A stretch of 63,218 bases of DNA, the filler included, from Kipferlia bialata (lineage: Eukaryota): NCBI GenBank assembly GCA_003568945.1. It is 5 parts of 5 records of this genome, joined end to end, with 100 filler letters (N's around TTAATTAATTAA, not from the genome) between each part and the next. Parts side by side here need not be neighbours in the genome. Positions count along the whole stretch, not along the records: positions 1 to 18,197 come from BDIP01000487.1; 4 more parts are not named here. One strand, 5' to 3'. Every line of letters begins with the position of its first letter. Position 1 is the stretch's first letter. The notes below the pieces were generated by a model. The model was given only the letters and a program-made list of their open reading frames with translations, was not told where the DNA came from and did not search any database. Position numbers and translations under genes: made by a program. Below are positions 663 to 58,710 of this stretch, one piece after another.

Positions 663-703
663 CCATCATTAACGCCATCATTAACGCCATCATTAACGCC
701 ATT
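663..703. repeat. 12-bp tandem repeat (CCATCATTAACG)x3
   Basis: Directly visible in intergenic sequence. Confidence 0.85.
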
Positions 704-803
704 AGCGGCTTGTACACTCGGGTGTGAAACTACAGTGCAGTACACACACTCTACTACTACTGTTACTCTCTCTCCCCCCCTCTCTCTCTCTCTGTCTCTT
801 TCT

Positions 804-3800
804 CTACTGTACTAGGTCCATAGGCAGAGAGGGCTTCCCACTGCAGTGGATGGTGCCATCAAACTGGGGTGAGTACACGGATAAGAACCTGGCAGATACA
901 TGGAGTACAATGAGAACAACATTGAAGTGGTAAGTCAATTGGACTAAGTATAATAGATCTATCTCTAAGTGTACCCTTGAGCTGTCTGACCCCTCTGACC
1001 CATGGGTATGATACAGAGTATAGAGTATAGCAAAGTATATATATATTATACATAGTATATAGACATATACATACCCTTGAGCTGTCTGACCCCTCTGACC
1101 GGTGGGGATAGGATATAGAGTATATAGTATAGCAAAGTATATAAAAACTATGTTATATATAGAATATTATATATAGTATATGCTATATGCGTACCCTTGA
1201 GCTGTCTGACCCCTCTGACCCATGGGGATAGGATATCCTGACACCATACATAGATACAGTATACATAGTATATATATACATATACATATATACATACCCT
1301 TGAGCTGTCTGACCCCTCTGACCCTGGTGGGTATGATATCCTGACACACCCCATAAACAGGGGGACCTGTGGTATGAGTAGAGAATGGTAAATATGAATA
1401 GATAAACTGTTATAGGTAATAATATACTAGTATAGTATATATATAGAAATACATGTTGTCACTTAAGGATATCCTGACACAGCCCATGAACAGCGGGACC
1501 TGATGCATAAGAATCAATGTATAGTTAGATTAGTGTGTATACAAAAATGGGTACTATATATGTACAACAAATGGAATATATCCTGACCCTGCCTGTGAAG
1601 AGGGGAACCTGGGGTATGATAATGAATAGTATCAACACAAAATACTTTGGAATGTATTAAATACCTGTTCCCTCAGCCAGTCCACGTGTCTGAGCAGTAT
1701 CTCTCTCTCTCTCTCTCTCATCAAAAGTATATATATACATACATATACTTGGACTACCTGATCTCTCAGCCAGTCCACGCGTCTCAGCAGTGTCTGCACA
1801 TTGACATCCCCCCTTCTCTCTCTCCCCCTATATATATGGATATTAATATATATATATATATCTATCTATATACCTGTTCCCTCAGCCACTCGACGTGTCT
1901 GAGCAGTCTCTGCACATTGGCGTCTCTCCTCTCCTCCCTCACTCTCTGTCTCTCTCTCTCCCTAGCAGCTTCTCTCTCTCTCTTATCCTTGTCGCCAAAG
2001 TGCACGGCAGTGCCATCGGCTGAGATGTACTCGATGCCTGAGGTCAGACACACATTTATAATAATAGTGATATAACAATACACACACATATACTACTACA
2101 TGTCTATATATTTATGACAGTGCACGGCAGTGCCATCAGCCGATATGTACTCAAAACCAAGAGTAAGACACGATTCTCCACATATCCCCTGTCTTTACAA
2201 CATATCATTTACAATACAACACTAACTGTATTGAATTATAGATGCTCATACCCTGGTCGATGTCCCCTGCTATGTCATCATGCACAGTGGCAGAGGTGTT
2301 GCCATGGCCGGCCTGGAGGGTGAGAGGTTACAAAGGAGTTACATGTGTATATATAGAAAGACAGACAGAGAGAGAGAGTGGTGTTGCCATGGCCGGCCTG
2401 GAGAGTGAGAGGAATATCCAATGATGAAGGCTCTTTCACATGAAGTGGGGCATGAATATATACCCACCTGGTACCCCGAGGGAGCCTCTATGTGCCATAT
2501 CTGCTCCATCCACGCAGCATACAGCACATCAAGTCTCTAAGGGTAAGCTAATGATAATAGAATAGTGTGACATGATACAATTTGTCGATCCACATATATA
2601 TACATCATACAGCACATCAAGTCTCTGAAGGTGAGAAACTCCTATGTGTAACATACTAACCAAGCAGCATAGAGGACGTCGAGTCTCTGTCTGAAAGCTA
2701 ATGGGCTAATGGTACTAATTTCACTCTACACGTACCGGCTTCCTCCTTGGCTTGGGCATGGTGCTAGGCAGTCTGAAGAGAGGGTTCCTGCCAGGCCTGG
2801 GTGAGTGACATGCAACCGAGTACAAACAACCAGAGACAATACACGCAATTAAAACAATTGGATAGTGTACTGTACCTAGGTGCTCTGTGCATCGGTGTGG
2901 GTTGTATGTAGTTGGGGTCCAGCTCCTTGAGTCTCTGCTTCTCTCTCGCACGCTCCTTCCTGGCCTGTCTCTCTCTCTCCTCTGCCTCCTGAAGTATTAG
3001 GGGTGAAGCAGATGATATAGATGGTATAGAATAGAGCATGCAATTTAGAAACACTAATGATCAATGACTGTGTTGTGTGTTCCTTCTCTCCCTGTGGATA
3101 ATGGTCCAAGCCTCCTATGACCCATTCTCTCTCTCTCTCTCTCAACGTATATCTTCTATCCAATAAGTATATATATACTCATTCATACCTCCTTCTCCCT
3201 CTCTGGGTCCCACCCCCCCATGACCCACTCGAAGAACTCGTCCATCAGCCTAGGGTCAGCAGAAGATTACACAAAAGGTATATATACACTTTACCCTAGC
3301 CCTACTATGGAAGTGTATTGAATATCTGACCATCTCAGGGTACACACATATGTCAAGGAACAAACTTCTCTGGGTACCTGCCGGACTATACTACAGGAGA
3401 GTAGTGATACTCCTACTAATATACATAAAAGTATAATATTACAATACAAATATTATGTAAGTATAATATATATACAATAATACAATATTTGTAATATATA
3501 AACACACCTGTACTGCACCACAGCTGGGACTGGCACACAGACACAAGAGTAATACCGTGTGTATATGCATATATATATGAATATACACTATATATACATA
3601 TATATATATGTATACTATGTATACCTGTACTGCACCACAGCTGGCACTGGCACATAGACACAACAGCAATACCGTGTGTATATGTATATATATATATATA
3701 TGTATACTATACATATATATATATATATATATGTATCCTATATACACCTGTACTGCACCACAGCTGGCACTGGCACATAGACTGAGGGTGGGTTGGAGTC

Positions 3801-6800
3801 AGGGCCCACACCTCCACTGTTGTCTCCCTCTCCCTGTCTCTCAATCACAGAGAATGCCCTCTCCAGTGGGAGCCACTGCTCCATGTAGAACCTGGTCTGG
3901 AGTTAGGGATNCCCTCTCCAGTGGGAGCCACTGCTCCATGTAGAACCTGGTCTGGAGTTAGGGATACACTACACATATGCATATACACATACAGAGAAAG
4001 TGTGTGCGTGTACCTCTGCATCTGAGTTGATGGCCTCCCTGGTTGGTCCTTCTGTCTCTCCACTCTGTCCATAGAACCTGTCTATCAGTATAAATATAGA
4101 TGGACACATATATAGATATATATTATATACATATCATATGGATACTGATACTGATTCTGATACTGATACCCATAGAACCTGTCTATATGTATATACCTAT
4201 CTATGTAGCTGCGCTCAGCTGCCTTGACATCGATGGTCATGCCCTGGGGTGAGGATACTTAAGCATAACTTAAGGATATGTAACTGAGAGACCAAGAAAG
4301 AGAGAGGTGCCAGGCAATCAAAACTCATGTACTGAAGATAGCAGATATAGTCTTGCTCATGCATGTCAATACCATATAATAGTATGGCTGTACCTCCAAT
4401 ATTGTACTTCCAAGTATTCTTGCTCACCTCCCCGAAGTTCCCTATCATAGCGTTCTTGATCATGTCTGTCCAGTTCATGGTCATGCCATCACGCCACACA
4501 TGCCTCTGGGCACTGGCCTGGTGGGGTAGAGGTACACTCTATACAGATGTATATATACCAATATGTATATACATAGAGAGAGAGAGAGAGAGAGAGATCA
4601 TGGCCATGCCACACATGGCGCTGGGCACTGGCCTGGGGGGTTAGAGTGTACATCATAATACTCACATTAATATATATGCATGTCTAAATATAGAATGCTA
4701 CTGTTATATTCAATACATCTAAAGAAAGGGCTTCACGCCACACATGCCTCTGGGCACTGGCCTGGGGGGTCAGCAGACGGCAAATGTACAGGCATGTATA
4801 TATATAAGGAGAGGTTATGTACTATATATATGGAGAGCTCATGGTCGTAATGCCACACATGCCACTAAGCACTGGCCTAGGGGCTAGGGAGGAGAATTGA
4901 ACACCGTACTATCGCAAACTGCCGATCTCTGTCCATTAACCTTTGGAAGCATTCATACCTGTCTGAAGTGGTCACTGACCATGGCGTAGATGCCCTGGGA
5001 GCCTGGGAGGGTCAGGTATTACGCGATAATGGGAAATACCATACGTTAACGCGAGATAGATATATGTATACTTTACCTGTTGTCTGGTAACAGAGGACGA
5101 AGAACAGTCTTGAGAGCAGGTCTGTGTTGAAGACCTTGAGTGACTCATATGCATTGAGGTAGAGTGTCTCTCTCTCTCCCTCTCTCTCCCCTTGAATGTG
5201 TGCGAGTGCCATCTCTCTCATGAGGGTGTAGGAGGCATCGGCCGCAGCTGAGATTAGATTCTATAATAGTGTATTACAACATATATATATAGGTTTTGTA
5301 ACTACTTTTCAATGAGTAGATACATGCTCTCTCATGAGGGAGTAGGAGGCATCGGCGGCAGCTGGGGTAAGCATTGCGAATATCACACATTTCTATAACA
5401 ATTACTGGACTATAGAGAGACAAATATATCGAGTATAGGAGGGTAGGAGGCGTCTGTGGTGGCTGGTGTAAACATAGGGTAAGAGACGCCATACAAAATT
5501 CATGTAAATAGAGATACACATATCCACACCTGGTATGTTTGTCATTGAATACATACAGTTCTAAATATATACTATATAAATACACACACATATATATATA
5601 TACACATACACCCATATCCACACCTGGTATGTTTGTCATTATAATAATATTATATTATATATATCTATATATATCGCCCTCACGCCTCTGCTCTGGGTGG
5701 AGTCACCTGGAGGGTTAGACTAATGAAGGATAATAAGAATAGATTCAGGATAATAATGGACAAATTGCCAGGGGTTGGAGGGAAGCATTTATATGCTCAA
5801 TTCACCACGATAACAACATATAAAGAAATGTATGCAGACATGTGTATGTGACTCTGGCTGGAGTCACCTGGGGTTAAGCTACTCAATAGAACAAAATATA
5901 CATATATCCACTCTGGAGGTAATGTATTAATAATGTAATAATCAAATACTTCATTCTCAGCAGTATTCCACTTGTCTCATACCTGTCCCGAAGCTAAATC
6001 CCTGATATATACGCTCCATTGTATCCCTGTCCCAATATGTATACTTATAATATACATATATACCTGTCCCAAAGCACGAGTTCAGGATGAGACTGAAGAG
6101 GGCAGCCCTGTCCAGCAGAGAGGGCACAATCTACGCGGTGAGTACACAACATACTACACGATGACGTAACACTGTGAAATGTGTCAATTCTACGCGACGT
6201 GTACCTTGAACACGCTGTACATCTCGTGTCTGGTGTATGGGCATCCAGTGAGAGAGGCAGATGGTAGGTCGGCTGGGGAGATGCCGCTCTCCCTCTCTCT
6301 CTCCTTCTCCCTCTCCCTCTCCATGTCTTGCTGGTGCAGTCTCCTGCCACCCTCCACAGAGTGCAACAGCCTGGGTGTAAAGATAGAGTAGCTAACAAAG
6401 CTTAATAATATGATGTGCATGTGATATAACAATATGTACATTGTGCCTTCTGCCACCTGTCCTGCCACCTGTGTATATAGTGTAAATATAGGAAAATACT
6501 TGTAAATACGCATCACTACCTTGACATGATTGAGTCTATGATCCCCCCCAGTCTTGTGTATGCCTCACATCCTGTGCCACACTCACTGGCACAGGCAGAC
6601 TGGACCTCCCTGGCAACCCTAGTGTTAAGGTATAGAGGGATAATAGGAGTATCTATTGCACAGGAGTTACCTTGGCAACCCTAGTGGTTAGAATGGAATG
6701 GAGTATACAACAATATAGCATTATCACTACTCTCATATTCAGAGGCACAGGCAGACTGGACCTCCCTGGCAACCCTAGTGTTAAGGTATATATACATATA

Positions 6801-8815
6801 CACGATATCTATATACATTTGTATATATATACACTGGTATACATGATATCTAGGGCACAGGCAGACTGGACCTCCCTGGCAACCCTGGTGGTAAGGTATA
6901 TACATATACACGATATAAATACACATATATAATTAGATGCACATATACACTGGTATAAATGATATCTAGGGTACATGCAGACTGGACCTCCCTGGCAACT
7001 CTGGGTGTAAGGCATATATATATATACGATTAACATATATATCAACAGTACATATGATCACTATAATCATATTAATGGCACAGGCAGACTGGACCTTGCA
7101 ACCCTAGGTGTATGATATATATGGCGAGGTATAGAGGAGAGATAAATACATACATATATACGATATATAAATATACGACTACCATCCTACCTGACCCCTG
7201 CACACAGCATAGTGGTGACACAAGTCAGTCTCTGCTGGCCATCGATGACCTGGGGGTAAGGGACTATAGGATAGGGTAAAGTTCTCAGTAAGAGTATTCA
7301 TGTATATGCGAGTATATATTTGGAATCAGATACACTCATACCTCCAGGGTGTTGATGCCCTCGTCTGATGTCCCGTCTGTCAGTCTCTCTCTCCCCCTGG
7401 CAGATTAGCACGATGGGAACATATTTATACATAGTATCATGACACTATTCTACGCCAATAGGGTCAATGTGAATCCGCTGACTTCAATTTTTACCTGTGC
7501 TATGCTCCCACATGGACGGATGTACAGTAGTATACATATATACAAATACATATGTATGTATATGTGACACTATCGAGAGCGTCTATATATAATACTAAGG
7601 TACCTGTACACGTGTATGCTTCCACATGGATGGGTGGTGCCCTGCCTGGTGCCTAGGATAAGAAGATGTGTATACATGGGTAAAGGTACAAAACATGAAG
7701 TACAAATTAGGGCTATCCACCTTGCTTGGCCACCTCTGACAGACGCTGCACGTCTCTAAAGTATATACATTAGATATATGAACAGAGTAAGTATATAGTA
7801 TAATACAATATAGTAGAGTACAGTATATATATATAAATATATATGTACCTTGCTTGGCCACCTCTGACAGATGCTGCACATCTCTTGAATAGATATATGA
7901 GATATACATACAGAGTCTACATAGAGTATATACAGTATGTATAGTATAGTAAATATTTACATATATACCTTGCTTGGCCACCTCTGACAGATGTTGCACA
8001 TCTCTAAAGAGTGTCTCCACATGTTTCTCAGTCCAGCAGAAGCGTCTGAAGGGGTGAGCAGCATCGTAGTATATACCGAAATGCAATATTTCACAATATT
8101 TGATATAATAAAATACGTTATGAGGAAGAGAGTCCAGCTGAAGCGTCTGGAGGGGTGATCATAAATGTGAGAGCTATACATATACGTTGAAGCGCCAAGA
8201 GGGATGGTATGTCATACTATATATATGACTACATATACAAGAGAGAGAGAGAGTGATATATACCTCTGGAACAGGGGAATGGTCACTGCCAGGGGTGCAG
8301 TGTCACAGGTGCCCTCAGGGAGTAGCTCGCCAAAGGTACACCTTGATTGTAAGCAGACAGATAGAGACAGACAGACATACAGACAGAGAGAGAGAGAGAA
8401 AAGGGGGGGGGAGGCATATATACAGGCATACAGACAGAGAGAGATGTGCTGTCAGGGAGTAGCTCGTCAAAGGCACACCTACGGAATAAGAGGTATATCG
8501 TTGGCATAAGAACAAAAATATTTATAACTGGGAGATAGAAACTATGTCAGTGATATGGAGTCGCTAATATGGGAAAGAATATGATAGGAGGGAGAGGGTG
8601 TGAATAATGGTGATAGACAAGGGGAGAGAATATAAAACTTTCAGGGGGGGTCCCATGAATATACAAAATGTATACTAACACACTATCTCCCTGTCTTTGT
8701 GATTGAGGAGAGGGGGGGGAATCACACCATACTCCTACCACCAATGCTATTATATATCCATACATATACCCTACCTCCCTGCCTCGACTGTGATGCGGTC
8801 AGGGTCATAGGGCAT
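804..8815 (-). CDS. DUF262 (GmrSD N-terminal, ParB/Srx-fold) domain protein, about 24 exons, no HNH/DUF1524 domain seen
   Basis: Hand-spliced GT-AG exons stay in frame from MPYDPDRITVEAGR (ATG 8815) to FDGTIHCSGKPSLPMDLVQ* (TAG 804-806). They carry the DUF262 motifs in order: IPLFQR-RFCWTEKHVETLFRDV (about 8280-8000), HPCGSIHVY (about 7620), LEVIDGQQRLT (about 7345-7225), IVPSLLDR, and GIYAMVS...RDGMTMNWTDMIKN (about 4990-4450). An upstream exon may exist, and one junction near 5550-5680 is less certain. Confidence 0.8.
973..1612 (-). repeat. Exon-edge echoes around the VPLFMGCVRISYPPGSEGSDSSR exon
   Basis: ACCCTTGAGCTGTCTGACCCCTCTGACC occurs at 973, 1073, 1193 and 1296. Acceptor-side copies lie at about 1468-1500 and 1579-1610. 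Confidence 0.9.
6588..7106 (-). repeat. Acceptor-edge echoes of the RVAREVQSAC exon
   Basis: GGCACAGGCAGACTGGACCTCCCTGGCAACCCT-like units occur at about 6588 (real exon), 6744, 6854, 6976 and 7077, with a short unit at 6670. Confidence 0.9.
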
Positions 8816-9131
8816 GGCTGGGGGTGAGACAGACAGAGAGAGAGAGAGAGAGAGGGAGAGAGGTGCGGTCAGGGTCATAGGGCATGGCTGGGGGTGAGGT
8901 ATAATGAATTGTAGTAAAGTATATGGGTATATGGGAATCTCTGTAGATAGGGAAACAGAAAGAGAGGGAGAGGTCAGGGTCATAGGGCATGGCTGGGGGT
9001 GAGGTATTGAATAGAATACAAAACACATTTACTATCAGCAGTAAGGGAATAATTGTATACAGGGAGAGAGACAGAGAGAGAGAGGTCAGGGTCATAGGGC
9101 ATGGCTGGCGGTGAGACAAAGGGAGAGAGAT

Positions 9132-9196: not shown

Positions 9197-9962
9197 AGAG
9201 GAACTTGGTATCCATTACTATCAAACTAGAGTAATGTAGTCGTAGGGAGTAAAGTGAAGGGAGGGAAGAGAGGTATATACTCAGAGAAGGATATAATGGA
9301 TATAATATAGTATATGTGAGTACAATCCAGGACCAACCTGTCCGCCCACCCGTGCTCTGCCACCATGCTGGATATGTCAGGGTGCATGATACGCATCCCG
9401 GCAGAGGGTGCAAGGGCCCGGAGGGCAGATCTGGACTGAGACCAAAACGGTACCGGTACCGAACATGATACCCACAAATAACACATGCACACAATACATA
9501 CCTCTTTCCACCCCCGGCCACCCCCGAGAGGATGAGTATGGAGGGTCTCTCTGTCATCCAGGAGGTCAGACGGCTGAGGTGAGTGCAATGAGGGTGGCTA
9601 TGGGGTATTGGGATACAGACACTTGGGAATGATATTATTGCAAGAACCGACACTGGAGCTGTCCCCATATACTTATCATATTGCATACACTACCTCTTTG
9701 TCTTGTCTCTGATCATATCTAGGTTGGGTGCAAGGGTCATTGGGAATGGATATCGCTTCACACTGGTCTGTTTTCGCTGGAACCGGGGTCTCCTCAGGCT
9801 GTTCTGAGACATCTTCTGCGACGTGGCTTGACGCTGTGACGCCCGAGGAGGAGACACCGAGAGGGAGAGAGAGCTGGAGCTGGAGAGAGACAGAGTGGAC
9901 TGTTGGAAGGTCATCGTCTCACTGGACTGGGAGTCCTCAACCACGCGTCTGGACCGCTTCAT
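9197..9962 (-). CDS. P-loop NTPase N-terminal fragment, Rad17/clamp-loader AAA+-like (partial, or fused to the DUF262 gene)
   Basis: Exons 9962-9694, about 9573-9502 and about 9430-9337 splice in frame to ...KRYPFPMTLAPNLDMIRDKTKSRLTSWMTERPSILILSGVAGGGKRSALRALAPSAGMRIMH, a Walker A-like motif after a hydrophobic strand. A possible 29-nt exon at 9225-9197 adds SLIVMDTKFL. Confidence 0.5.
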
Positions 9963-10364: not shown

Positions 10365-13199
10365 CTACTTCCTGATGGCTGTGGGCTTCACCTTGTAGGA
10401 CATCTCCCACAGCTCTTCGGCGTCTGTGTCCTCTGCGGTGATGAAGTCACACAGCCTGGGGTGAGAGGGGGGGAGGGGAGGGAAAGACTACATAATATGG
10501 ATATATGGTCAGTGCATACACACCTAGGGTCCACCGTGTAGTGCACGGGCCTGAGCTGAGGGGCTAGGTACCCCAACACATGGGCGTATATCTGACAGCA
10601 CCGGGTGAAGTTGACCTAGAATGAGAGAGAGTTAGAAGAGTCTGTACAAACACATTTGTATAGTCTTCCCACCTGTCCGTGCTCCACCTTCTCGCTCCCC
10701 TCCTCAACCATGATCAGGTCCTTGCACGTCAGACCACTGTAGGGGACATAGGAGCCTGTGCCTGCAAAGGTGACCTCCTTCTGCACCACACCCTCGGCAG
10801 GGGGGTGGAGCAGGGCCACCATTGCCTTCCTGTATGCCGCATAGTTGTGCTCAATGTCGATGAAGGCAGCCAGGGCATCCAGGCTGCGCTGTGCCTTAGA
10901 GGTGACTGCAATGTCGCTGGACTGGATCAGACGCTTGACCTAGGGTGAGTGAGGGTATGAGGTCTAGAGCATAAATGAACCATAAAGATATACAGATGTA
11001 CAGATACATAGATTTGATATTATTGTCTTATCAAAGTGTACCTGTGGGCATCTGAGGCCACTGAACACTGCAAACAGGGCCTCGAACTGCCTCATGGCCT
11101 TGAGCTCACAGGCCACAGCCACAAAGTGGGAGAAGGCCTGGGACCGGTAGGAGCTGTCCTGGGGTTGGACTAGAGGGTATACATATACACATATACATAC
11201 ATGGGAGAGAGATGGAAGTAAGGCCGTACCTCCGATGTGATGAGCACCCTGGACACCCATGCGGATATGGAGTTGTGCCTCTGGATCAGTATGCGCACAT
11301 GGGGGCACAGGTGGTACTGGGACGCCTTGGTGAAGATCTGGTTCACTAGCTCTCTGGGGGTCAGATTGCAATGCAATAACAGACACACTTAACTGTCACA
11401 TACCCCTACTAAGAAGGTAACGTGCCATGTGCACCTCTTACATATACATATATACACATACATACCTAGGGTGTATGTGTGAGTATGCCTCGTGCAGGAT
11501 GTATCCGACGTGGTGTGCCAGGGTGGAGGGGGACAGACCCAGGAGCACATGGGAGGGAAGGTCCCTCTTGCTCCCTGGCGTCTCTCCCTCCTGTGTGGTC
11601 TCCTCGGGAGGCAGGATGGTGGTGACGGTATGGGGGGGAGTGAGGTGGTACCCCGTCTCCCTGTGCTCCCTCTCCCCGTCTCTCTCCCCCATCAGCTCCC
11701 TATACCTGCCGCCAACCTCGTCTATCTCAGCCACACCCAGACAGGCCAGGGCCGGCACAGAGGGTGCGTGTGGGTAGGGCGTCTCTATCTGCTGGGCTGG
11801 GAAGGGGTGGGGCTGGACACCAGGCAACACAATGGCGGTGGGCACACACATGGTGGGGAGGGTCGCCTCTGTAGCAGGGGAACCCTCCTCCCCTACCACA
11901 GTGGCTAAGGAGGCAGAGGGGGAGGCCGGGGTGACTGCTGGGGACGTGGCCCCTGGGTATGTGTCAGCCAGGGTGGCGTCCAGCCGCTCCATGTCTGACA
12001 GTATCAGCTCAGACAGAGACCCAAACACAGAGGTCGACAGGGACACAGCAAACTCAGCCACCTGCTCCAGGAGGGGCAGGGAGAAGTCATCAAAGTACGA
12101 TGTCAGCCACTTGTGCAGCAGCAGAATGACACACCGCTGCCTGGGCAGCTGCTGGTCCACCACGTAGCTCTGGCGCTCCATCTCGGACAGACCCTCGGGT
12201 ACGGGCAGGGCATACACGTCGAGTAGCTTCTCCAGCAGAGACTCAGCCGAGAGGTAGACTGGGTACACGAGGAGGAACACATTCTGGGTGTATGCACGGG
12301 CACTGAGAGTGAGAATCACAAAGAGATTCATAAATCCTCACTTATATGTCTATACTGATGACAAAATATATGGACTAACCTAGGCGTCTGCTTTGTGTCT
12401 GTCATTGTGAGGACTACCCTGTTGACATAGCATCTGCGGAGGATCCTTGGGTGAGGGATAAGTGAAGGAAGGGAAAGAGAGGTAGAGAGAGATCTGTGCA
12501 CCTGACTGACTCTGGCACTGGCATCCACCCCCCTGGGAGTGCAATGGCATTGCCCCAGTGGGTGTTGGCATCAGAGGCGGCGGGCTCTGCCATGACAGGC
12601 CTGGACAGGGCCACCTTCTTGGAGACAAACCCATCTGGGGGTGGAAGACACAAGAGAGAGAGACACTTTGCGGAGGGGGGGGAGGGGGGGGGGGCTTCAT
12701 TAGTAACAATAACACTGTACCTGTTCCTATGTGCTTCTTGAAGATTAGGAGCAGAGCATCGTCCTTGAACTCACATGCCCTGAGGTGGGAGAGAGGGTGC
12801 AAAGACAATCACAATAGTGCTGCACCTTGACACGCATACACCAGACATTGCCAAAGGTACGTGACAGATCATGTAACAGACACGTAACTACAAGGGTTGT
12901 GAGTGTATCTGAACAGCCAGTGTCTAGTATAGAAGGACGAAAGCTCAGACTGGATACCTCACGAGCTCCAACTTGTAGGGAGTGTCTCCAAGCTTGGCCA
13001 GACGGCCGAATGTGCGTGTGGCAAGGTCCTTGTACTGCACCATGTCATATCCAACAGGAACATCAAGCCTATAGGGCTCATAAGACTCAACCTGCACATA
13101 TAGAGCGAGTGTCTCGCTCTTAGGGGCTTCCTCAGCGATAGCCTTGGTCTCTGGGCCATCCTGCGACACTACTGGCACATCATCCTCGATTTCGGGCAT
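10365..13199 (-). CDS. Ras guanine-nucleotide exchange factor (REM + CDC25 domains)
   Basis: The spliced product has the REM signature VFLLVYPVYLSAESLLEKLLDVY...RCVILLLHKWLTSYFDDF. It also has CDC25 signatures LSPSTLAHHVGYILHEAYSHIHPREL, IQRHNSISAWVS, RQFEALFAVFSGL, VPYSGLTCKDLIMVEEG, VNFTR and LWEMSYKVKP. Stop at 10365-10367. Confidence 0.9.
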
Positions 13200-36707: not shown

Positions 36708-39700
36708 GTGTGCGGGTGCTGTCTTCCACAGGGTCAGTGATCAGATGAGGAGCACAGAGGTACGATGGATACTGTGTGTGATATATATATGGTATATTGT
36801 TATACAAGGCGCTGTATGTAATAAGGCTATATATATATATATATATATATAAGGTGACCAGATGAGGAGCACAGAGGTATGGCGCATACTGTATATGTTT
36901 TAATAGTAGTATTTATATAGTCGATATATAGCGCCTGATCTTCATCGAGAGATTGTATTCTTTTGGTCCATTGATGACTGTTCATATTCGTACATCACTC
37001 ATCTCTAATTGTCAGGGCCCCATGGACGATGACCTTACCCAGGACAGCTCCCTTATACTGTGGCACTTCTTGGGTATGTTCATATGTTAGAGTATATGTG
37101 TATATTCTATTATTATATATATACTATTAGTATTTCTATATACATGAATTAGCTCCATCATACTGTGACACTTCCTGGGTATGTGTGTGTTTGATACCAT
37201 ATATATACCATATATTCTTTATGTTACTGATAATCATTGTATATACTAACACTCAGGTCAGAGTGCCCGTGACGTGTGTGAGTCCTTGTATGAATGTATA
37301 ATGTAATGTATAATAGTGTATATGTATATATATATATGTGAATATATACACAGCCTTCTCACTCCCAGGCCAGAGTGCCCGTGACGTGTGTGTGTCCCTG
37401 TTGTCCAGGGGTGCAGACTCATTCATACCAGACAACGCAGGCCTCACACCTCGGTACGGGAGGGATTCATTTGCTTCGCATTTATGCTACATTACCTTCA
37501 ATTGATATATACAATTCAATGTTGGTACAGATACTGACTCCCAGTGACTATGTTGTCCTCTTCCTCAAGGGTCAGCGGCTTCTATCAGGACCAGACTTCG
37601 AAAACCAGGTATATATGCATGTATATATATCAAAGTATATATAGAGAGAGAGAAAGACAGAGAGAGGGGGGGGGGTATACGAGGATAGCGGTTCTTCTCC
37701 TCTTCTTACCCCCAGCCCATCCCCACTGCTGACAACGAGTACTCAACCGGACAAGAACAGTCAGGTAGTGAGTAGCATTACGTTCTAGTGATACCCCAAT
37801 AAGATGGTAGTTGTGTATTTGGAACATTCAGTTGAGTTTGTGTTTGTGTCAGTACCGGTGCCAATGTGTATACGGTATTTGTATACTGTGGGATATTTGT
37901 ACCTCAATATCACTCTATTAACGTTGTTGAACCTACTACTAGAGAGACGTACGCATTGTCTCCTTCCTCACCCCAGTCAACACTGAGGCCGTGCTAGTCA
38001 GACTGTACCCTCTGCTCCTGCAGCAGAAGGGGGCCAAGAAGACATTCAAGGCAGCCGTGACTCAGGTAGGCTTCTATAATAGTATATATTTGTATATATA
38101 TACAGAGAGAGAGAGATGACATTCAAGGCAGCTGGGACACATGTAATGCTGGATACATACATTACCCCAATATTCCAACACGTGTCTCACCCAGGCCTCC
38201 AAGTACCTCCCCCACCATGTCTCCACACAAATATTCATGCTCATTTACATATATGTACTATAATAGTATGTATAGTGTATCTATCTAAGTGAGACTNNNN
38301 NNNNNNNNNNNNNNNNNNNNNNNNNNNNNNNNNNNNNNNNNNNNNNNNNNNNNNNNNNNNNNNNNNNNNNNNNNNNNNNNNNNNNNNNNNNNNNNNNNNN
38401 NNNNNNNNNNNNNNNNNNNNNNNNNNNNNNNNNNNNNNNNNNNNNNNNNNNNNNNNNNNNNNNNNNNNNNNNNNNNNNNNNNNNNNNNNNNNNNNNNNNN
38501 NNNNNNNNNNNNNNNNNNNNNNNNNNNNNNNNNNNNNNNNNNNNNNNNNNNNNNNNNNNNNNNNNNNNNNNNNNNNNNNNNNNNNNNNNNNNNNNNNNNN
38601 NNNNNNNNNNNNNNNNNNNNNNNNNNNNNNNNNNNNNNNNNNNNNNNNNNNNNNNNNNNNNNNNNNNNNNNNNNNNNNNNNNNNNNNNNNNNNNNNNNNN
38701 NNNNNNNNNNNNNNNNNNNNNNNNNNNNNNNNNNNNNNNNNNNNNNNNNNNNNNNNNNNNNNNNNNNNNNNNNNNNNNNNNNNNNNNNNNNNNNNNNNNN
38801 NNNNNNNNNNNNNNNNNNNNNNNNNNNNNNNNNNNNNNNNNNNNNNNNNNNNNNNNNNNNNNNNNNNNNNNNNNNNNNNNNNNNNNNNNNNNNNNNNNNN
38901 NNNNNNNNNNNNNNNNNNNNNNNNNNNNNNNNNNNNNNNNNNNNNNNNNNNNNNNNNNNNNNNNNNNNNNNNNNNNNNNNNNNNNNNNNNNNNNNNNNNN
39001 NNNNNNNNNNNNNNNNNNNNNNNNNNNNNNNNNNNNNNNNNNNNNNNNNNNNNNNNNNNNNNNNNNNNNNNNNNNNNNNNNNNNNNNNNNNNNNNNNNNN
39101 NNNNNNNNNNNNNNNNNNNNNNNNNNNNNNNNNNNNNNNNNNNNNNNNNNNNNNNNNNNNNNNNNNNNNNNNNNNNNNNNNNNNNNNNNNNNTACCTGCT
39201 GCACCCAGCATATCGGGCATGGGGGCCGCATTCCCACAGGTACTAATGTATATATACATATATAGGTTCATACCAATATATATGTATATATATATATATG
39301 GTGTATGACCTACCTGCTGCATTTCTGCTTGATCTACCTGCTCTACCCAGCATATCGGGCATGGGGGCAGCATTCCCACAGGTATTAAGTATTGGACATT
39401 GATTATTAATTATTACACATAGTAGATTAGAGTTATGAACAGTAATAGAGTTACGATAGTTAGGTGTATGTGACTTGTTTGTTCCATCTTAGAATGAATC
39501 TTACAACAGGCCGGCCCAGATATCCGGTCCTGTCGGGAGCGCCTGATCCCCACCCCCGAGCCAGAGATGCTCAGCACACGCACACTCAGAGGTAGGGGTG
39601 TGTATGATTCGCAGACTGCTGACTATTCATCTTTCGTTACTCACTCAGTTTCCACGTTTGAAGTGTATTCTTCTATGTCATTGTAATCAATATATATATT

Positions 39701-42700
39701 TCTAAGACTCATAACCAGCTGCCCGTCCCATAGCCCCCCTATCCCCCGGTGCAGTGGCCACCATAGCCACATACAGAGTGCGGAGGCTGATGGCACTCCC
39801 TGATAGGTATATTGTGTATAGTATATATATATGTGTGTGTGTGTGTGTATATATGTGCCACCATAGCCACGTACAGGGTGCGGAGGCTGATGGCACTGCC
39901 AGACAGGTATAAATAGTATGTATATATATATAGTACACCCAGTATATATAGATATATGATGATTGTTGTGACTTATCGATCTTACCCTTTCAGGTTCTTC
40001 AAGCCGCCCCTGGTGTCTGACGACTCCGAGTCGGAGGGAGACAGCATATACAGTTCCTACGGCACTCCTTCTAGTCCATCCAGCACCTCTAGCACACCCA
40101 GGGGTGGGAGGGGTAGGAGAGGACCCAAGGGTAGAGCGGCCCTAGGCCTTTACGTGGACTCTGAGTTTGAAGGGGAGGGAGAGAGAGAGTTTGAGAGAGA
40201 GAGAGAGTCTGATGAGAGTGGTATTGATCGTCAGAAGAGGGACTCTGGAGTGAGGCTGCTGAGTGGAAAGGTAGGGGTTGTGTCCTCGTTTGGAACAGTG
40301 AACCTTTAACTACCATATCCTACGACATGGATACATCTCGAAATGTATAACAGCAGTGATGTAATGCTGGTATATGTATTATGACTAAGTATACTTGTCA
40401 CATACTTATGTGTAGGACAGACAGGCCAGACAGTCCAAGGACATCATGCGGAGGTTCACATCAAGGTATGTGTCTTGCCATAATCGTATTTCATCTCTTA
40501 GTGACTGCATTGTGTACCTTTCCATAATAGCATACCCACAAGCCATTCGTTAGGTCCCCAGCACACTCACTTCTATTGAATCATTGATAGTGTTAACCAC
40601 TACCCCCAGAATGATCTCTGCTGCGGGTACCCCTGTCCCTGAGAATGCCATTGCATCAGATAGTGAGCTGGAGGCTAGGGCATCCAGGTATATGGGACAT
40701 ATCATACACTATAGATTGATATGTATTTACATATATACGGGTATGTCATTGCATCGGACAGTGAGCTGGAGGCTAGGGCATCCAGGTATCATAGTGTCTG
40801 GAATTAGCCTCACTGTTGTTGATGACACTGAGGTCAACGCTGGGGTATTAGTGTGATGAGTGGTGATGTTTCCTATTCCCATTCCTGTAACTGTTCACTT
40901 ATACCCAGGGTCCGTCGTGCCGAGCTCTTTGCAGCCAAGGTCCGGAACCCAGGTAAAAGAGTACAAGGAGTTCCCATATGCACGTGTTTTTAAGAGTCTA
41001 CAGTGTTTACACTCCCTCACCCTCAGGCCTAGCCTTCTGGCCCCTGGCCCCCTCGTGCTCTCTCCCAGTGGCGGAAGGGTCTGATACACCATGCTTCAGA
41101 TACAGGGTGGGTGTATGTTAAATAGATATATACACATGTATATATATATATATATATTGTGTCTCTATATTCTCTGCCCGGGCTTCCTATACAGGGTGGG
41201 TGTACATTGTATTACCTGTCCAGTCGATATATCGGATACTGTATCACATACTCCTCTGACTGGTAGGTGCGTGGCTCCACCCTTGGTGAGCAGCTGTCCC
41301 ACCTCATGAGACCAGACGGAACAGCAACAGGTATATTTATATGTGTGTATACATGTATGTATCTGTATATATATAGTCCTGGTGGGTATAGTGTATATGG
41401 TGTCCCACCTGATGAGACCAGACGGAACAGCGACAGGTATATTTATATGGGTGTATACATGTATGTATTTGTATATATATAGTCCTGNCAGGTATATTTA
41501 TATGGGTGTATACATGTATGTATTTGTATATATATAGTCCTGGTGGGTATAGTGTATATGGTGTCCCACTTGATGAGACCAGACACAACAGTACCAGGAA
41601 TACACATATTACTTAACAACTGTATATGTCGGCAATATAGTACATAGAGTATTATGTATACTTGTCTGACCTCAGGATCCTTTGGTGTAGTTGGTGTTGG
41701 ATCAGCATTCTGTGGCAGAGACTTCAAGGATGGTGAGTGTCCATCATTTACCCTTGCTATATACCCTTGCTTCCGCCATTTACTTCACCAGTCAGAGAAT
41801 GAAGATATGTCACTCTACTTCGTTGCTCTCTCCAGGTCCTGAGGCTCTCTCTAGTTAGTGTGTAGGTTACAATTGTCATTATATATATCTTACCCCAGGC
41901 CCTGACGCTCTGTCCTGGGAGGACCTCCCCGATGATGGGTGGGCAGAGGCAGACATGGAGACGGAGAGAGAGAGAGAGAGGCAGCTGGAGGAGGAGGACG
42001 CCATGGAGAGCGAGCTCGAGCGGGAGATGGAGAGAGAGATGGAGAGGGAGATGTTAGGTGGTGATCTCGGGCTCGGTGGTGACGATATTGCCTCCAACCT
42101 AGCTGCTCTCGAGCACTTTGGGGCTGATATCACGGACTCTGAGCCAGAGACCCCAGAGGGTGCAGAGGGAGAGAGCGACACCAGCAGAGAGAGGGAGAGA
42201 GAGAGAGCTGCCTCCCATGAGAGGGAGAGAGAGAGAGAGAGTAGGGCAAGGGCGTCCAGTCTCGCCAGTGAGGGGGGCTACATGAGGGACCTGGCTGCTG
42301 AGACAGACAGTGTGTCCACTCTCACCATGGCACTCGGGAAGCTCTTAGGTACGCGTATATACATATACATGTGTGTATGTGTGTGTGGTTAATTGTTTGT
42401 GCATCTCCTGTATGTATGTTTCACTGTCTCTGATACCAGGCACCGCCTTCAATGTAGGTGGTCTCCGTGCTCCCTCCAACATACCCTCCGGCCACAGGCC
42501 CCCTGGGTCTCTATTCGACTCTCTGGCATACAGTCTGGCACCTATCAGGGGTGCCATTGGAGCCCTCTCCCCCTTTGTCCCCGTTCTCCCACCCCTGCCT
42601 TTCATAGAGGGCGACACTACCTCAGTCAACGAGGGGAGGGGAGGCAACGAAGGGAGTGAGAAGGAGGCGGATACATCTCCTGCGGACGAGGATGATGGGG

Positions 42701-49213: not shown

Positions 49214-52001
49214 GGTGTGCCTGTGTATCTTCCATTAGATAGGGAGTTACCAGCCTGGCACAGGTACTTCAGCCTCAACTATTCTCGGTCACTCTACATC
49301 TGTTACTACTGTAATTATATCAGAGTGTAGATACAGTCGTCTATTTAAGCAATGGTTGTGTTTGATGACCATTTACTTGCAAACCCGATGTCCTTTGTCT
49401 CTCTCTTTCTCTCTCACACCTGACAATCCAGGTTCACCTCTGCCACTGAGCCCCTCCCTGCCAATGTGGTCATTGACATGGGGCAGAAGATATCCCTTAT
49501 CAGGTTGGTAGCTCCAACCCCGTCTAGTGTATCCTATATGTATACAACTATGGTCATTAGCACGAAGCAGTATATTCCTGAACATGTACCTCCGACCCCC
49601 CGACACCCCACCTTTAACACACCCTCCACTGTCTCCATATATATGGTCTGCTCACCTTATAAATCCATTCACTTCTCTATATGGATGTCTCCCCTCCTAT
49701 GTCCCATTCTATGACTAAATGCATTTACATCGTACGACACAGATACCTAGCCTTCTACCCTCCGTCCCTCCTATCTCCCACCTCGATTACTACAAGAGTA
49801 ATATATATTCCCCATATAGGCACGGCTTCCTAGTAGTCTAGCCCTTCTACTTACCCTATCTCACTCATTTCTCGTCCTCTATTCCCGCCTCTAGACGAGG
49901 CATCTTCCCCCACGAAGAGTCCAATCAAACCTTCTCTCTCTCACACACACACCCGACCCCCGTCCTTTCTCCCTCACGAACTGTATACTAACCTCAGACT
50001 AGGCATCTTCCTCCACGGAGAGTCCAACCAGAACCCAGCCCGTGTCAGATACGAGGTATCCTCGGTGTGTATATAAATTGTCAGTAATTGGAAGGATAGT
50101 CATTGTGTATGGGGACCATGTGTATATACTCTAACACCTAGGTCAGTGTGGAGGCCCCTGAGGATGAGGGTTTCGAGTGGGTCACATTGGTGGACACACC
50201 CCTGCCACAGGTAAGCACAGGTTCTTACTCGGTTGTACTATGTGTCAATATGTGTTTCATACTACTGTATGTTCCGAGCGACTGGTGCACATCCAACTCC
50301 CTGAGGAACTGTACTACGTGTCGTGCTATCCCCCTGCGGATTGATGGCCTCTCTCCCCTATTACTCTCCCCATGCATGACTCTCTAATCCCCAGAGAGGA
50401 GGAGCGTTCATGTGGAATATCGTCGATATTCCAAATATCGAGGACAAGCCATGTTACAAGGTCAGCATCCCCATTCGTTTTGTTAACATTGTGTTTAGAG
50501 TGTGACGACATGTGGATGTTCTAGAGAGAGTCACATTCTCTCCTTCATCACCTTAGCGTTACGTCAAGTACCCTATTTCAGCACATATCAATGGTGATAT
50601 GAATGCTACTTACTTTCTGCAACTCCAGCAACGCTCCAATGCATAGTCACTTTCTCTCGCTTACATGCAGACTGCCCGCTATGTCAGGTACACCATTGTC
50701 TCCAACTATGGGGGTTCAGGTGCATACACCACCAAACTCTACCTATTCGGTACTCCAGCCTTGTCACTGCCCACCCTGACAGAGCCTCGGTCCACACTTC
50801 AGGTCCGTTCTAACCACTCTATCTACAAATCTATCCATTCATCAATCACACATCAGGGCCCTTTCAGTTGTGCAGACTCTATGTGTGGCCAGGAGTTCGA
50901 CACAGAAGGTAAAGCCTCTCACTGACTCTCTCTATGTATATCTTCCTTGAACACAGACCATCGTGAGTTGCCTCACACAAGCAGTCTCTCTCTCTCTATC
51001 TCTCACACACACTCCCTCGACATATACATATGTGCTCTTAGAGTAGGTGACCGTGACCTGCACCACACGGAGGTCCATGGGGGCAAGCCCTACCGGTGCG
51101 GAGTAGCGCTATCAGGTGAGAAGGAGAAACTTTCACTCAATTAAGTCATTAATCAATCCTCCTCACTGTCGCAGTGGGTCACTATGAGGCACGTGCTCAC
51201 CCACAGGTGGGAAGAACAGTCTGTCAGGCACTGGACGGGGTAGAAGACTGACCACCTGTCCCCAGTGCTTTGGAACAACAGGTTAGTATTCATTCCACCC
51301 CGTTCCTGTAACCCTGTCTTTCACTCCCCCAAACCACCCCAAGCCATGACGATCATTGGGGCGTATGTAACATCTCTCTATCATTAGTAATGATTCATTA
51401 CGACTAGTGCCTAGTATTGCTGCTGTATTTGTGTATATTCGTGACCTCAGAGGAACTGGCCGCTCACATGCCTCTCCACAGATTCCGCTGTACCCACACC
51501 CAGTGCTCAGACAGAGAGAGTTTCCTCACCCTGGCAGGTATCAATCAACATATACGTATTCAAGAGCCACTAGCAGTGATATCCGATGATTGTGAGTTTG
51601 AGTCAAGCTTTGACCAGAATGGTCCTTCTACTCCTGTCCGAAGCATTCTCACGCACACAGTCTCTGTCAGGTTCTCCCATTCCCTTGTATATGTGCCACA
51701 GCTCTCTCTGCATCTAACCCTAGCACTCCAGGAGCACATGAAAGAGGTGCACAGTGTGTGGCAGTGCCCTATTTGTAATGCGTGCGTTGCTTTCTCTTTC
51801 TCTTAATGAAACTCTTGGGTGAACCGCCCAGGGAAACAGTGGTACTGGAAGACAGATAACAACTATTCCTTAAAAATTCTAGGTTTTACTCATTGGCAGT
51901 GCAAGGATGACCCTAGAGGAGGCACTATTCCACATGAACCAGGCTCACGAGGTATGTAGTAAGGTGTACCATATTAGTACCGAATAACTCTCATTCAGTA
52001 G
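48623..52001 (+). CDS. Discoidin/F5-8 type C (galactose-binding-like) domain plus C2H2 zinc-finger protein
   Basis: The spliced N-terminus reads SFSSQYHHESRALNLL...CWFTSATEPLPANVVIDMG...NPARVRYEVS...WVTLV...TARYVRYTIVSNYGGSGAYTTKLYLFG. It is followed by the fingers FSCADSMCGQEF..LHHTEVH, FRCTHTQC..SFLTLAALQEHMKEVH and WQCPICNAARMTLEEALFHMNQAH (C-x2-C-x12-H-x4-H). Confidence 0.75.
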
Positions 52002-56191: not shown

Positions 56192-58710
56192 TAGTCCAGG
56201 ATATCCGTCACAGCAGCACTGAGGGTGCGCTGAAGTCCTGGAATAAGGGTCTAGCAGAGTAAGAAGGTCTCGCCAATACTATAATCTATATATATGCACA
56301 CTATATACCTGGCATTGATGTGAGTCTGGACACACTCCCAGGGTCAAGGAACTCAGCAACGCCTATGGGTGAATATAGGATGTGGAAGGGGAGAGGGATG
56401 CGGACAGAGGGGCAAATATCTAGAAGAGTAAAATAGTCCATATGCACACATATATTTACACTATGCACACTATATACCTAGTAACAACAGCACATCGTGT
56501 GTCATGGATGATATGGATGGACTCCACCCCCCACACACAGGGGCAGTCACTCTATATACATATTCATACTATATATATAATACACACATATATATGTACA
56601 GAATACATATATCTACCTAGTAACAGCAACACGTCATGAGTGAGTGAGGATATACTGGGACTCCACCCCCCACACACAGGGGCAGTCACATCTAGGACCT
56701 TCACCTGGGCCTGGGAATTAGTGGAGTAGCTATAGTAATAATATCATAATTATGGGTGTAGTGGAGGTATTAAGGGTTGAGTGAGTATATGTAGTACCTT
56801 GACTCCTAGTATTGGCTTCTTGAGCGAGTATCCGTACTGCTGCAGCATGTCTGTGTCCTTGGTGCAGGAGGGGGGGACAACATCGCCTATATATTAGAAT
56901 ATACCAAAGTGTAAAGTGTATACAGTATGTGTCCATAGTATATATGTTGGAGCATGTCTGTGNNNNNNNNNNNNNNNNNNNNNNNNNNNNNAGTATATAT
57001 GTTGGAGCATGTCTGTGTCCTTGGTGCAGGAGGGGGGGACAACATCGCCTTATGTTAGTATATATCAAAGTGTATAGTGTATACAGTATGTGTATCCATA
57101 GTATATATGTTGGAGCATGTCTGTGTCCTTGGTGCATGAGGGGGGCACTACATCGCCTGGTATTAGTATATATGCATAATATATACATGCATAATATATA
57201 CATGTATATGGTATACTATGTGTATGTGTATATGATTGAGGGTAAGTTAGTGTCCTTGGTGCAGGAGGGGGGCACAACATCACCTGGGTGTTAGTATACA
57301 TAGTATATAGAGTACATATACATGTATATATGTCGTATATATATGCAGCATGTCTGTGTCCTTGGTGCAGGAGGGGGGGACTACATCACCTGATGTATAA
57401 GTATATATGTATATATATACATGTATATATATGTGTATGGTATACTTAGTATATGTGTACATGATTGAGGGTATGTCTGTGTCATGGGTGGAACTACATA
57501 TGTGTATATACCTTCGTAGTTACTGCTACACCGCATGTTGCTACTGACTGTCTGCCTCTTGTCCATGTCTAGTATAGATATATCATATATAAATACTAAT
57601 GCCCATATATATAATTATATATACACATATGTGTACACTCATACCTTCATAATTGCTACTGCATCTCATGTTTGATGACACTGTCTGCCTCTTGTCCATG
57701 TCGAGTATGGGCAGATGAAGAATATATATATTGATATATAATAATACATACTGTATAGTATATACCTTCATAGTTACTGCTACAGCGCATGTTACTAGAC
57801 ACTGTCTGTCTCTTGTCCATGTCGAGTATATAGTCATGAGTATACAATCAGAATAGTACCTTCATAATTGCTACTGCATCTCATGTTGCTAGACACTGTC
57901 TGTCTCTTGTCCATGTCGAGTATGGGCAGGTGGGACCGGGTCAGATAGGGGTTGATACTACTGTTAGTAATAAATACATATAACTGTATATAATATATGA
58001 TATGCAGTAAATACAATATATAATAGTCCAGTATGGGCAGGTGGGACCGGGTCAGGTAGGGGTTGATACTACTGTTAGTAATGCATATATATATAATTGT
58101 AGATAATTCATAGTACGCAATATAGTATGTATAATCAATGTAGTATATACAGTATATATAGTATATTGTATAAATAATATATAGGGGTGATGCTGGAGTG
58201 AGCAACATTAAAAAATATATACATTTATACAAATGTATATAATAGAGAATATGCAAAATATAGTATGTATAATCAATGTAGTATATAGTATATAGTATGT
58301 ATAGTATATAGTGTGTAAAATCAATGTAGTAGTCTAGTATGGGCAGGTGGGATCGGGTCAGGTAGGGGGTGATGATACAGGTAAGACACGGAGATAATGT
58401 GAAGGATACACACGCAAAGTGAATATATATATATATACTTCACATATATAGAGAGAGAGGACTAACAATTACCTGAACACACTGTCCCCAGACAAGGTGC
58501 CCTTCCTAGTTACTAGGGACCTCTCCTGCACAAGAGTGGCACTGACTGACATTAGGGGGGTAGAGAGAGAGGAAGAGAGAGAGGGCTCTCCTGCACAAGA
58601 GGAATATGCATATATACTAACCTAGTTTCTCATCACTCTCCGTGTGTCTCCTTGTCTGCATCAGTGCACCTCTCTTCTGTAGCAAAGACATGGCTGGTAT
58701 TAGGGGTGTA

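What the first reader, a model, noticed from the sequence alone, without database searches (positions are those of the whole stretch)
973..2695. The same synonymous-echo pattern in the 3' part of the DUF262 gene
Seen: the real RLDVLYAAW is AGA CTT GAT GTG CTG TAT GCT GCG TGG, and the echo at about 2661-2687 is AGA CTC GAC GTC CTC TAT GCT GCT TGG (5 silent changes, 0 replacement). The VPLFMGCVRIS echo at about 1468-1500 has 4 silent and 0 replacement changes, and the farther echo at about 1579-1610 has 4 silent and 2 replacement. The LLRHVEWLREQ echoes are biased to third-position changes with conservative E/D swaps. An independent gene on an independent contig shows the process is general.
Basis: seen in the sequence. 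Interest (0 to 1): 0.7.

Follow-up and report, generated by a model that had tools for sequence, protein, structure and literature searches.

The report
Introns holding fossil exon alleles
Introns of this free-living protist carry short, spliced-out copies of neighbouring exon ends that differ from the working exon mostly by silent changes, more than dead copies should, so they are likely displaced pieces of other working alleles and would record recombination in a very diverse population.

Summary
In detail: every codon claim checks out. The gene encodes Kipferlia bialata KIPB_002770, with a GmrSD_N/DUF262 domain upstream of this range. Eleven intronic echoes lie in 973-2695. Each copies an exon end, nearly always with its AG or GT, in units of about 113 bp. 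An RNA-type contig skips them all; DNA contigs reproduce those in 810-1690 without differences at even depth.

An unbiased count over three genes gives 89 silent versus 38 replacement codons in 47 echoes (pN/pS 0.18). Copies that die at birth predict 0.5 or more, and 0 of 400 simulations reached the observed share. The signal is extreme in a contig-4 gene (43:2, mosaic), clear in this range (22:13), weak over this whole gene (31:27).

Best reading: ordinary tandem duplications across splice junctions, refreshed by misaligned exchange with diverged working alleles (silent divergence about 0.2), then decaying. The geometry is known (human F7 minisatellite). This scan noted junction echoes in two other genomes, reportedly without such an excess. 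I found no report of the excess or mosaicism. The allelic origin is inferred; no second allele was seen.

The parts
804..8817 (-). Gene for P0001 (NCBI name: hypothetical protein KIPB_002770, Kipferlia bialata), 23 coding exons in this span; GmrSD_N (DUF262) domain at residues 54-175
   Evidence: the joined exons match P0001 and all 22 introns are GT-AG; the annotated protein starts slightly upstream, at 8878
804..863 (-). last coding exon
   Evidence: RNA-type contig record 9 joins 1298 to 863
975..1013 (-). donor-side echo 3 of exon 1298-1366; no codon change in 975-1001, 2-nt deletion beyond it, keeps the live TCA TAC codons
   Evidence: DNA contigs 810-1000 and 977-1094
1075..1116 (-). donor-side echo 2 (3 silent, 2 replacement codons), followed by GT
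   Evidence: DNA contig 1071-1220
1195..1244 (-). donor-side echo 1 (3 silent, 1 replacement), followed by GT
   Evidence: DNA contig 1197-1263
1298..1366 (-). live exon beginning VPLFMGCVRIS
1467..1499 (-). acceptor-side echo (4 silent, 0 replacement), preceded by CAG
   Evidence: inside one DNA contig with the live exon, 1303-1690
1579..1608 (-). farther acceptor-side echo (4 silent, 2 replacement), preceded by CAG
   Evidence: same DNA contig
1665..1702 (-). far donor-side echo of exon 1874-2037 (1 silent, 2 replacement)
1758..1814 (-). near donor-side echo of exon 1874-2037 (4 silent, 6 replacement)
1874..2037 (-). live exon ending LLRHVEWLREQ
2119..2152 (-). acceptor-side echo that has lost its AG (3 silent, 0 replacement)
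2252..2312 (-). live exon
   Evidence: RNA joints
2377..2397 (-). acceptor-side echo (1 terminal replacement)
2468..2536 (-). live exon beginning RLDVLYAAW
   Evidence: RNA joints
2603..2624 (-). near acceptor-side echo (identical for 19 nt, then 1 replacement)
2660..2686 (-). far acceptor-side echo (5 silent, 0 replacement)
   Evidence: not covered by a listed DNA contig
57512..58373 (-). contig-4 gene: live exon 57860-57960 with 3 donor-side and 2 acceptor-side echoes, 25 silent and 1 replacement codon, including Ser TCN/AGY and Arg AGA/CGN switches; mosaic
   Evidence: frame from the only open exon chain, not RNA-checked
56478..57387 (-). contig-4 gene: four acceptor-side echoes of exon 56798-56886 (9 silent, 0 replacement) and a donor-side echo of exon 56617-56710 (9 silent, 1 replacement)
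36854..41597 (+). contig-3 gene: 8 echoes (15 silent, 9 replacement including 1 stop); 39857-39906 has 5 silent, 0 replacement

Best explanation
The echoes are real intronic copies of an exon end, nearly always with its splice site, which the main transcript splices out; they likely began as tandem duplications of about 110 bp across a splice junction and are likely refreshed by misaligned recombination with other working alleles, so each would be a displaced piece of a formerly functional allele that now decays. Geometry (shown): a duplication spanning one splice site must leave an acceptor plus exon start upstream of the live exon, or an exon end plus donor downstream, and only the outermost donor and acceptor are used. 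Refreshing (inferred): the exon part is the best homology between diverged alleles. When an allele's live exon end pairs with a homolog's echo and crosses over, the working end is pushed into the echo position. Differences from the neighbouring live exon are then allelic (silent) divergence plus a shorter period of neutral decay (replacements, stops, small deletions). The implied silent divergence between alleles is about 0.18 (0.07-0.28). Enabling context (inferred from the literature): metamonads lack Ku-dependent end joining, and the fornicates examined lack Rad51A and keep two Dmc1 paralogs, a recombinase that tolerates mismatches.
For: Silent excess: 89:38 codons and pN/pS 0.18 (exon bootstrap 0.11-0.33; 0.18-0.45 without the contig-4 gene). 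A dead-at-birth null gives a 34-39% silent share against 70% observed, 0 of 400 runs; with one echo per exon, 41:25 and 38:25, 0 of 1000 each. Echo-versus-echo codons are 63 silent to 20 replacement. Codons where an echo differs while another copy equals the live exon are silent-biased in both orders (17:6 and 26:9, neutral share 0.25), so no serial age order explains them. Four-gamete conflicts occur in 7 of 24 informative site pairs, one pair only 3 nt apart. Seven of 13 multi-base codon changes keep the amino acid. Decay is also present: 2 stops, non-conservative replacements and frameshifting deletions. Flanks are mostly no more alike than unrelated introns (35 of 42). In a toy forward model, exchange between homologs at theta 0.2-0.4 and 150-300 times the site mutation rate gave pS 0.12-0.29 and ratio 0.09-0.28 in 12 of 12 runs; sister-only exchange never combined pS of 0.13 or more with a ratio under 0.5. 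Literature: crossovers favour exons in hypervariable S. commune (PMC4209137, abstract); repair gene losses (PMC8516963, section 8); Dmc1 mismatch tolerance (PMC8682777, abstract).
Against: No second allele was seen: the laid DNA contigs list no other letters. The strongest signal and all four-gamete conflicts come from one gene whose exons are inferred, not RNA-checked. In the finding's own gene the excess dS-2dN is 0.076 with an interval that includes zero (-0.014 to 0.155). Outside 973-2695 that gene does not reject the dead-at-birth null (p 0.18-0.27), and its 'near differs' class is 4 silent to 6 replacement. The predicted distal excess of replacements vanishes when the last 6 nt are trimmed (p=0.27), and flank identity does not track silent divergence (rho -0.06). 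The toy model fails at exchange rates of 50 times mu or less (ratio 0.38-0.83). The contig-4 value (0.39) is about double the 0.20 reported for S. commune (PMC4576712). Recurrent mutation at near-saturated sites can mimic four-gamete conflicts.
Confidence: 0.6

Rival explanations
1. Plain tandem duplication with copies dead from birth. Silent bias arises only because the live exon rejects replacement changes, so pN/pS should be at least 0.5.
For: Explains the geometry, the regular spacing (median 113 nt), intron growth of about 119 nt per echo and the 10 of 47 unchanged echoes. Not rejected for the 5' part of the finding's gene. An earlier AI note found it sufficient in a sea urchin gene (e1-9861148, unchecked).
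Against: 0 of 400 simulations reach the overall 70% silent share; 0, 0 and 1 of 400 for the finding's range; 43:2 in the contig-4 gene. Polarised and echo-echo changes are also silent-biased.
Confidence: 0.1
2. Same copying mechanism, but the donor was a diverged paralog or the homeolog of a past hybridisation, not alleles of one freely recombining population.
For: Two deeply diverged types alternate along the contig-4 exon-7 array, and a divergence of 0.39 is high for alleles.
Against: No paralog of P0001 in three protein searches. No variant DNA contig at 85% identity or more was listed over the laid exons. Some codons have three or more states, more than two donors would give.
Confidence: 0.14
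3. The echoes are under selection now, as rarely used alternative exon halves or as spare exon ends swapped in by frequent recombination or pop-out.
For: Near-perfect protein conservation in the contig-4 gene. AG is kept in 22 of 26 and GT in 19 of 21 echoes. Contigs drop rare isoforms.
Against: The RNA-type contig skips every echo in 810-3540. Spacings are multiples of 3 in 14 of 42, as by chance, and no echo is a whole exon. Stops, frameshifts and non-conservative replacements occur. Splice-site retention (41 of 47) is about what decay at pN 0.04 leaves. Sister-only exchange with selection on reactivated copies did not give the pattern.
Confidence: 0.11
4. Assembly artefact: haplotypes or strains stitched in tandem.
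For: The window has gaps and two exact 54-bp duplications around a single N (3911, 41488). The DNA run may be the source of the assembly. No long reads or read pairs were available.
Against: Separately assembled DNA contigs match 810-1000, 977-1094, 1071-1220, 1197-1263 and 1303-1690 with 0 differences at depth 435-489. One of them holds the live exon, both acceptor echoes and part of a third echo.
Confidence: 0.04

Closest known systems
Minisatellites whose first monomer spans an exon-intron boundary: human F7 intron 7 (37 bp), LMNB2 (100 bp), PDGF (81 bp), CBS, 6-16 (PMC1557585; abstract and passages read)
   Same: Tandem units reiterate a splice site inside the intron; pseudo-sites stay silent and the authentic outer site is used; unit size is similar to the LMNB2 case.
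   Different: Here both acceptor and donor sides are affected, in 23 of 48 modelled introns; 1-4 units per exon side; 16-73 nt of exon is copied; flanks are mostly unalignable; the exon parts are silent recodings and mosaic.
Tandem duplication across an intron-exon boundary in potato RdRp (PMC4974935; abstract read)
   Same: A duplication crossing an intron-exon boundary inherits the acceptor and part of the exon.
   Different: There it created a new intron; here the copy stays inside an enlarged intron and is skipped.
Exon-biased crossing-over in hyperpolymorphic Schizophyllum commune (PMC4209137, PMC4576712; abstracts read)
   Same: Would supply the proposed ingredients: silent diversity near 0.2 and exchange confined to conserved exon sequence.
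   Different: Those abstracts describe aligned crossovers between isolates, not intronic remnants; neither diversity nor crossing-over was measured here.
Tandem mutually exclusive exons (recalled, own knowledge)
   Same: Duplicated coding segments in introns with a silent bias.
   Different: No echo is a full exon with both splice sites, and the protein sequence is unchanged, leaving nothing to choose between.
GmrSD_N (PF03235, formerly DUF262) proteins
   Same: Residues 54-175 of P0001 pass the Pfam cut-off (64.6 bits versus 33.2).
   Different: The rest of the protein, including the part in this finding, has no family match; the host gene's function is incidental to the echoes.

Membership tests
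Splice-junction-spanning tandem repeats (F7 type) | Repeat unit includes an exon end and its splice site | tested here: met
   42 of 47 echoes reach the exon end; AG 22 of 26, GT 19 of 21
Splice-junction-spanning tandem repeats (F7 type) | Only the authentic outer site is used | tested here: met
   RNA-type contig joints skip all echoes in 810-3540; contigs cannot show rare isoforms
Splice-junction-spanning tandem repeats (F7 type) | Near-identical head-to-tail monomers over the whole unit | tested here: not met
   only 7 of 42 flanks exceed the unrelated-intron control, although spacing is regular (62-162 nt)
Splice-junction-spanning tandem repeats (F7 type) | Copy number varies between individuals | not testable with these tools
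   one sample only
Dead duplicated sequence (pseudo-exon decaying from birth) | pN/pS against the live exon of 0.5 or more | tested here: not met
   0.18 overall and 0.21 in the range; inconclusive for the 5' part of the gene
Mutually exclusive exons | Complete exon copy with both splice sites | tested here: not met
   0 of 47 echoes cover a whole exon
Mutually exclusive exons | Alternative inclusion in mRNA | tested here: inconclusive
   one RNA-type contig shows skipping only
Intron gain by tandem duplication | Duplication creates an additional spliced intron | tested here: not met
   echo-bearing introns in 810-3540 are removed as single introns in the contig
Displaced alleles (proposed) | Echo variants occur as live alleles in other isolates | not testable with these tools
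   no second isolate listed
Displaced alleles (proposed) | Mosaic, non-tree-like variation among copies | tested here: met
   7 of 24 site pairs incompatible, all in the contig-4 gene; no informative sites in the finding's gene
GmrSD_N / DUF262 | Pfam PF03235 above the curated cut-off | tested here: met
   E 1.8e-17, 64.6 bits, profile positions 12-78 of 199

The most novel reading that the evidence does not exclude
With no Ku or Rad51A and only Dmc1, this fornicate exchanges DNA between widely diverged alleles so routinely that its introns form a standing archive of working exon ends that cycle in and out of use. One genome would then reveal sex or parasex, a recombination rate, and silent diversity up to about 0.4, above the 0.20 reported for the most polymorphic species, and this process would be a main driver of intron growth.
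Probability: 0.22. Interest if true: 0.85.

Novelty: new variant of a known kind. Interest (0 to 1): 0.63.

Why it matters
If the echoes are displaced alleles, a single draft genome carries a sample of its population's past alleles. Whether free-living fornicates recombine, and how diverse they are, becomes testable by counting echoes genome-wide with no new sequencing. The process would also explain much of intron length here (about 119 nt per echo, r=0.83) and offers many natural tests of how a reduced spliceosome ignores near-perfect decoy splice sites. It links a reported repair inventory (no Ku, no Rad51A, two Dmc1) to a visible genomic footprint.

Tried and rejected
No whole genome is held for this window, so no genome-wide count was possible. 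Reads were laid only on 700-3540; the rest of the gene and the other genes have no read support here. No run is on record as RNA; X2 is RNA by guess, though its GT-AG joints behave like mRNA. Bins without DNA cover (1745-1934, most of 2030-2884) prove nothing, because a filter drops records and 170 pieces were not shown.

Paralog searches: near-length found only P0001; shorter, residues 200-658, found none of 6515 candidates; representatives gave 33 distant hits at 26-53% identity, centred on the N-terminal domain. PADLOC hits (SspE, HEC-06, Orf5) reflect the same domain.

Null tests: position gradient of replacements (p 0.023, then 0.27 after trimming), flank identity versus divergence, and distance versus divergence (rho -0.07); conservative-replacement test. 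The first simulation grid (exchange 2-50 times mu) did not reproduce the pattern.

Rows dropped before counting: 2 of 49 segments (the single-N duplicate at 3909-3951 and a gap-edge duplicate at 56945-56962), plus low-complexity segments removed inside the script. In one search, 6 of 36 were dropped (single-N duplicate, four GA-repeat hits, one 9-mer). Exons at 9962-9339 and a candidate exon at 5706-5624 did not give an open frame in my first model and were left out. The plus-strand gene at 54983-55400 was excluded because its frame is ambiguous.

Literature searches that did not show a description of this pattern (judged from listings). The genome paper has 0 occurrences of 'duplicat'. Supplements were not read, and subscription papers are not in the library.

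Full report
WHAT THE WINDOW IS. The window is five contigs joined by N spacers. The finding lies in the 3' part of a minus-strand, intron-rich gene on contig 1. One exon query retrieved an identical 658-aa protein named KIPB_002770 of Kipferlia bialata. Twenty-three exons between 8817 and 804 translate to that protein with 22 GT-AG introns. The finding's range encodes unrelated C-terminal sequence.

THE OBSERVATION. All codon claims were reproduced. A codon-blind local-alignment finder run on four exon chains (this gene, two parts of a contig-3 gene, a contig-4 gene) found 49 segments; two were dropped as probable gap artefacts. The frames of the contig-3 and contig-4 chains come from the only open reading of each chain, not from RNA. 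Echoes occur in 27 of 91 adjacent exon-intron pairs and 0 of 551 sampled non-adjacent pairs. Upstream echoes are acceptor plus exon start, and downstream echoes are exon end plus donor; 42 of 47 reach the exon end. In the three introns that hold both kinds, donor echoes come first. Units are spaced 62-162 nt (median 113). Intron length is about 125 + 119 nt per echo, and echo introns are richer in TA repeats (0.107 versus 0.061, p=0.002).

REAL, AND SPLICED OUT. Two coded runs were laid on 700-3540. An RNA-type contig joins 3507>3248, 3188>2987, 2875>2795, 2736>2536, 2467>2311 and 2251>2036, and by record arithmetic 1874>1366 and 1298>863, so it skips every echo. DNA contigs match 810-1000, 977-1094, 1071-1220, 1197-1263 and 1303-1690 with no difference at depth 435-489; the last holds the live exon and both VPLF echoes. 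The RLDVLYAAW echo is not among the listed DNA pieces. The DNA run may be the assembly's own source, so this tests the assembler and not a second individual.

THE KEY TEST. A copy that dies at birth mutates freely while the live exon keeps mainly silent changes, so pN/pS should be at least 0.5. Observed over 47 echoes and 537 codons: 89 silent and 38 replacement codons, codon positions 25/23/94, pN/pS 0.185, exon bootstrap 0.11-0.33. No simulated null (omega 0, kappa 1-4, 400 runs each) reached the observed share. By part: finding range 22:13 (0, 0 and 1 of 400); whole gene 31:27 (1, 1 and 8 of 400); contig 3 15:9 (2-4 of 400); contig 4 43:2. Against this, an anchored count in the finding's gene gave p 0.01-0.07, and p 0.18-0.27 outside the finding's range. 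The excess dS-2dN is 0.18 overall (0.07-0.28), 0.21 in the range (0.04-0.34), 0.076 for the gene (-0.014 to 0.155) and 0.39 on contig 4.

THE ECHO LINEAGES THEMSELVES WERE CONSTRAINED. Echo-echo differences are 63 silent to 20 replacement. Changes in an echo at codons where another copy equals the live exon are 17:6 (near differs) and 26:9 (far differs) against a neutral share of 0.25; most come from contig 4, and in the finding's gene they are 4:6 and 8:6. Three serine codons switch between TCN and AGY, and three arginine codons between AGR and CGN, without changing the protein. Seven of 24 informative site pairs fail the four-gamete test, all on contig 4. In the finding's range, two donor echoes and an acceptor echo share TCC where the live exon and the farthest donor echo have TCA, which is suggestive of two allelic types. 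Decay is also plain: 2 stops, deletions of 2-4 nt, and replacements no milder than random. The history therefore has two phases, functional and then dead.

MECHANISM. Shown: junction-spanning partial copies, regular spacing, skipping, silent excess and mosaicism. Inferred: birth by short tandem duplication; only duplications spanning one splice site are harmless; afterwards, misaligned exchange between homologs, guided by the exon homology, pushes working exon ends into echo positions. A toy Wright-Fisher model tested this. With exchange at 2-50 times the site mutation rate it failed (ratio 0.44-0.83; 0.38-0.48). At 150-300 times and theta 0.2-0.4 it gave pS 0.12-0.29 and ratio 0.09-0.28, bracketing the data. 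Sister-only exchange gave ratios of 0.42-0.87 in 14 of 15 runs at those theta values (one run 0.13 at pS 0.03). The model is crude and its parameters were chosen after the first grid failed; it shows feasibility, not proof. Context from papers: metamonads lack Ku70/80 and DNA-PKcs, and all fornicates examined lost Rad51A and have two Dmc1 paralogs (PMC8516963, section 8 and passages read; K. bialata is among its genomes; its supplementary tables were not read). Dmc1 tolerates mismatches (PMC8682777, abstract). Crossovers favour exons in S. commune (PMC4209137, abstract), whose silent diversity is 0.20 (PMC4576712, abstract). K. bialata is suggested to be diploid from k-mer peaks (PMC5874029, passages). 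Passages of PMC6679479 and PMC12895298 added nothing used here.

COMPARISON AND NOVELTY. It works like the known junction-spanning minisatellites (PMC1557585) but fails their near-identical-monomer feature. It is neither a set of mutually exclusive exons nor an intron gain. Seven literature searches showed no description of protein-preserving, mosaic junction copies, in Kipferlia or elsewhere; this is judged from listings of an open-access library. Two earlier AI notes of this scan report the same geometry in other genomes with a silent share near the dead-copy expectation; I did not check them, but they suggest the geometry is common and the excess is what is special here.

VERDICT. A real feature and a new variant of a known kind. 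Displaced diverged alleles are the best explanation (0.6), with a paralog or hybrid donor (0.14), present function (0.11), plain dead duplication (0.10) and artefact (0.04) as rivals. Interest 0.63.

Noticed in passing
window 5515-5875, minus strand: Two acceptor-type copies (about 5868 and 5706) and two donor-type copies (about 5624 and 5530) of an exon with no intact in-frame version in the assembly. The annotated protein skips from 6064 to 5247 (phase 1 to phase 1). Either orphan echoes of a lost exon or a collapsed assembly.
   Followed up: partly
window 19210-19570, minus strand: Echoes of a gene's 3' end including its stop codon, not a splice site, suggesting the process acts at any coding border.
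   Followed up: partly
window 3857-3965 and 41434-41542: Exact 54-bp duplications on either side of a single N; probable gap-closing artefacts.
   Followed up: partly
window 4077-4197, minus strand: The intron ends in 8 letters that match the end of the upstream exon at 7 positions, as in tandem-duplication intron gain; could be chance.
   Followed up: no
window 9339-9962, minus strand: Upstream exons with a Walker-A-like GxxGxGK stretch (motif recalled) that are not in the annotated protein and did not join it in frame; possibly a separate gene or a missed 5' part.
   Followed up: no
window 10370-13200, minus strand: A multi-exon gene that looks RasGEF-like (label recalled, not tested) has no echoes in the repeat scan; echoes cluster in genes with short exons and TA-rich introns.
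   Followed up: partly
window 54889-55392 (+), 54548-54658 (+), 52352-52584, 49893-50027, 55604-55860, 39193-39388 (+), 18517-18628, 20585-20668: Further echo-like repeats not included in the counts (frame unknown or live exon in a gap).
   Followed up: no
P0001: A GmrSD_N domain, typical of bacterial anti-phage systems (best PADLOC hits Orf5, HEC-06, SspE), in a protist gene with 22 introns and no close relative; a candidate old lateral transfer.
   Followed up: partly
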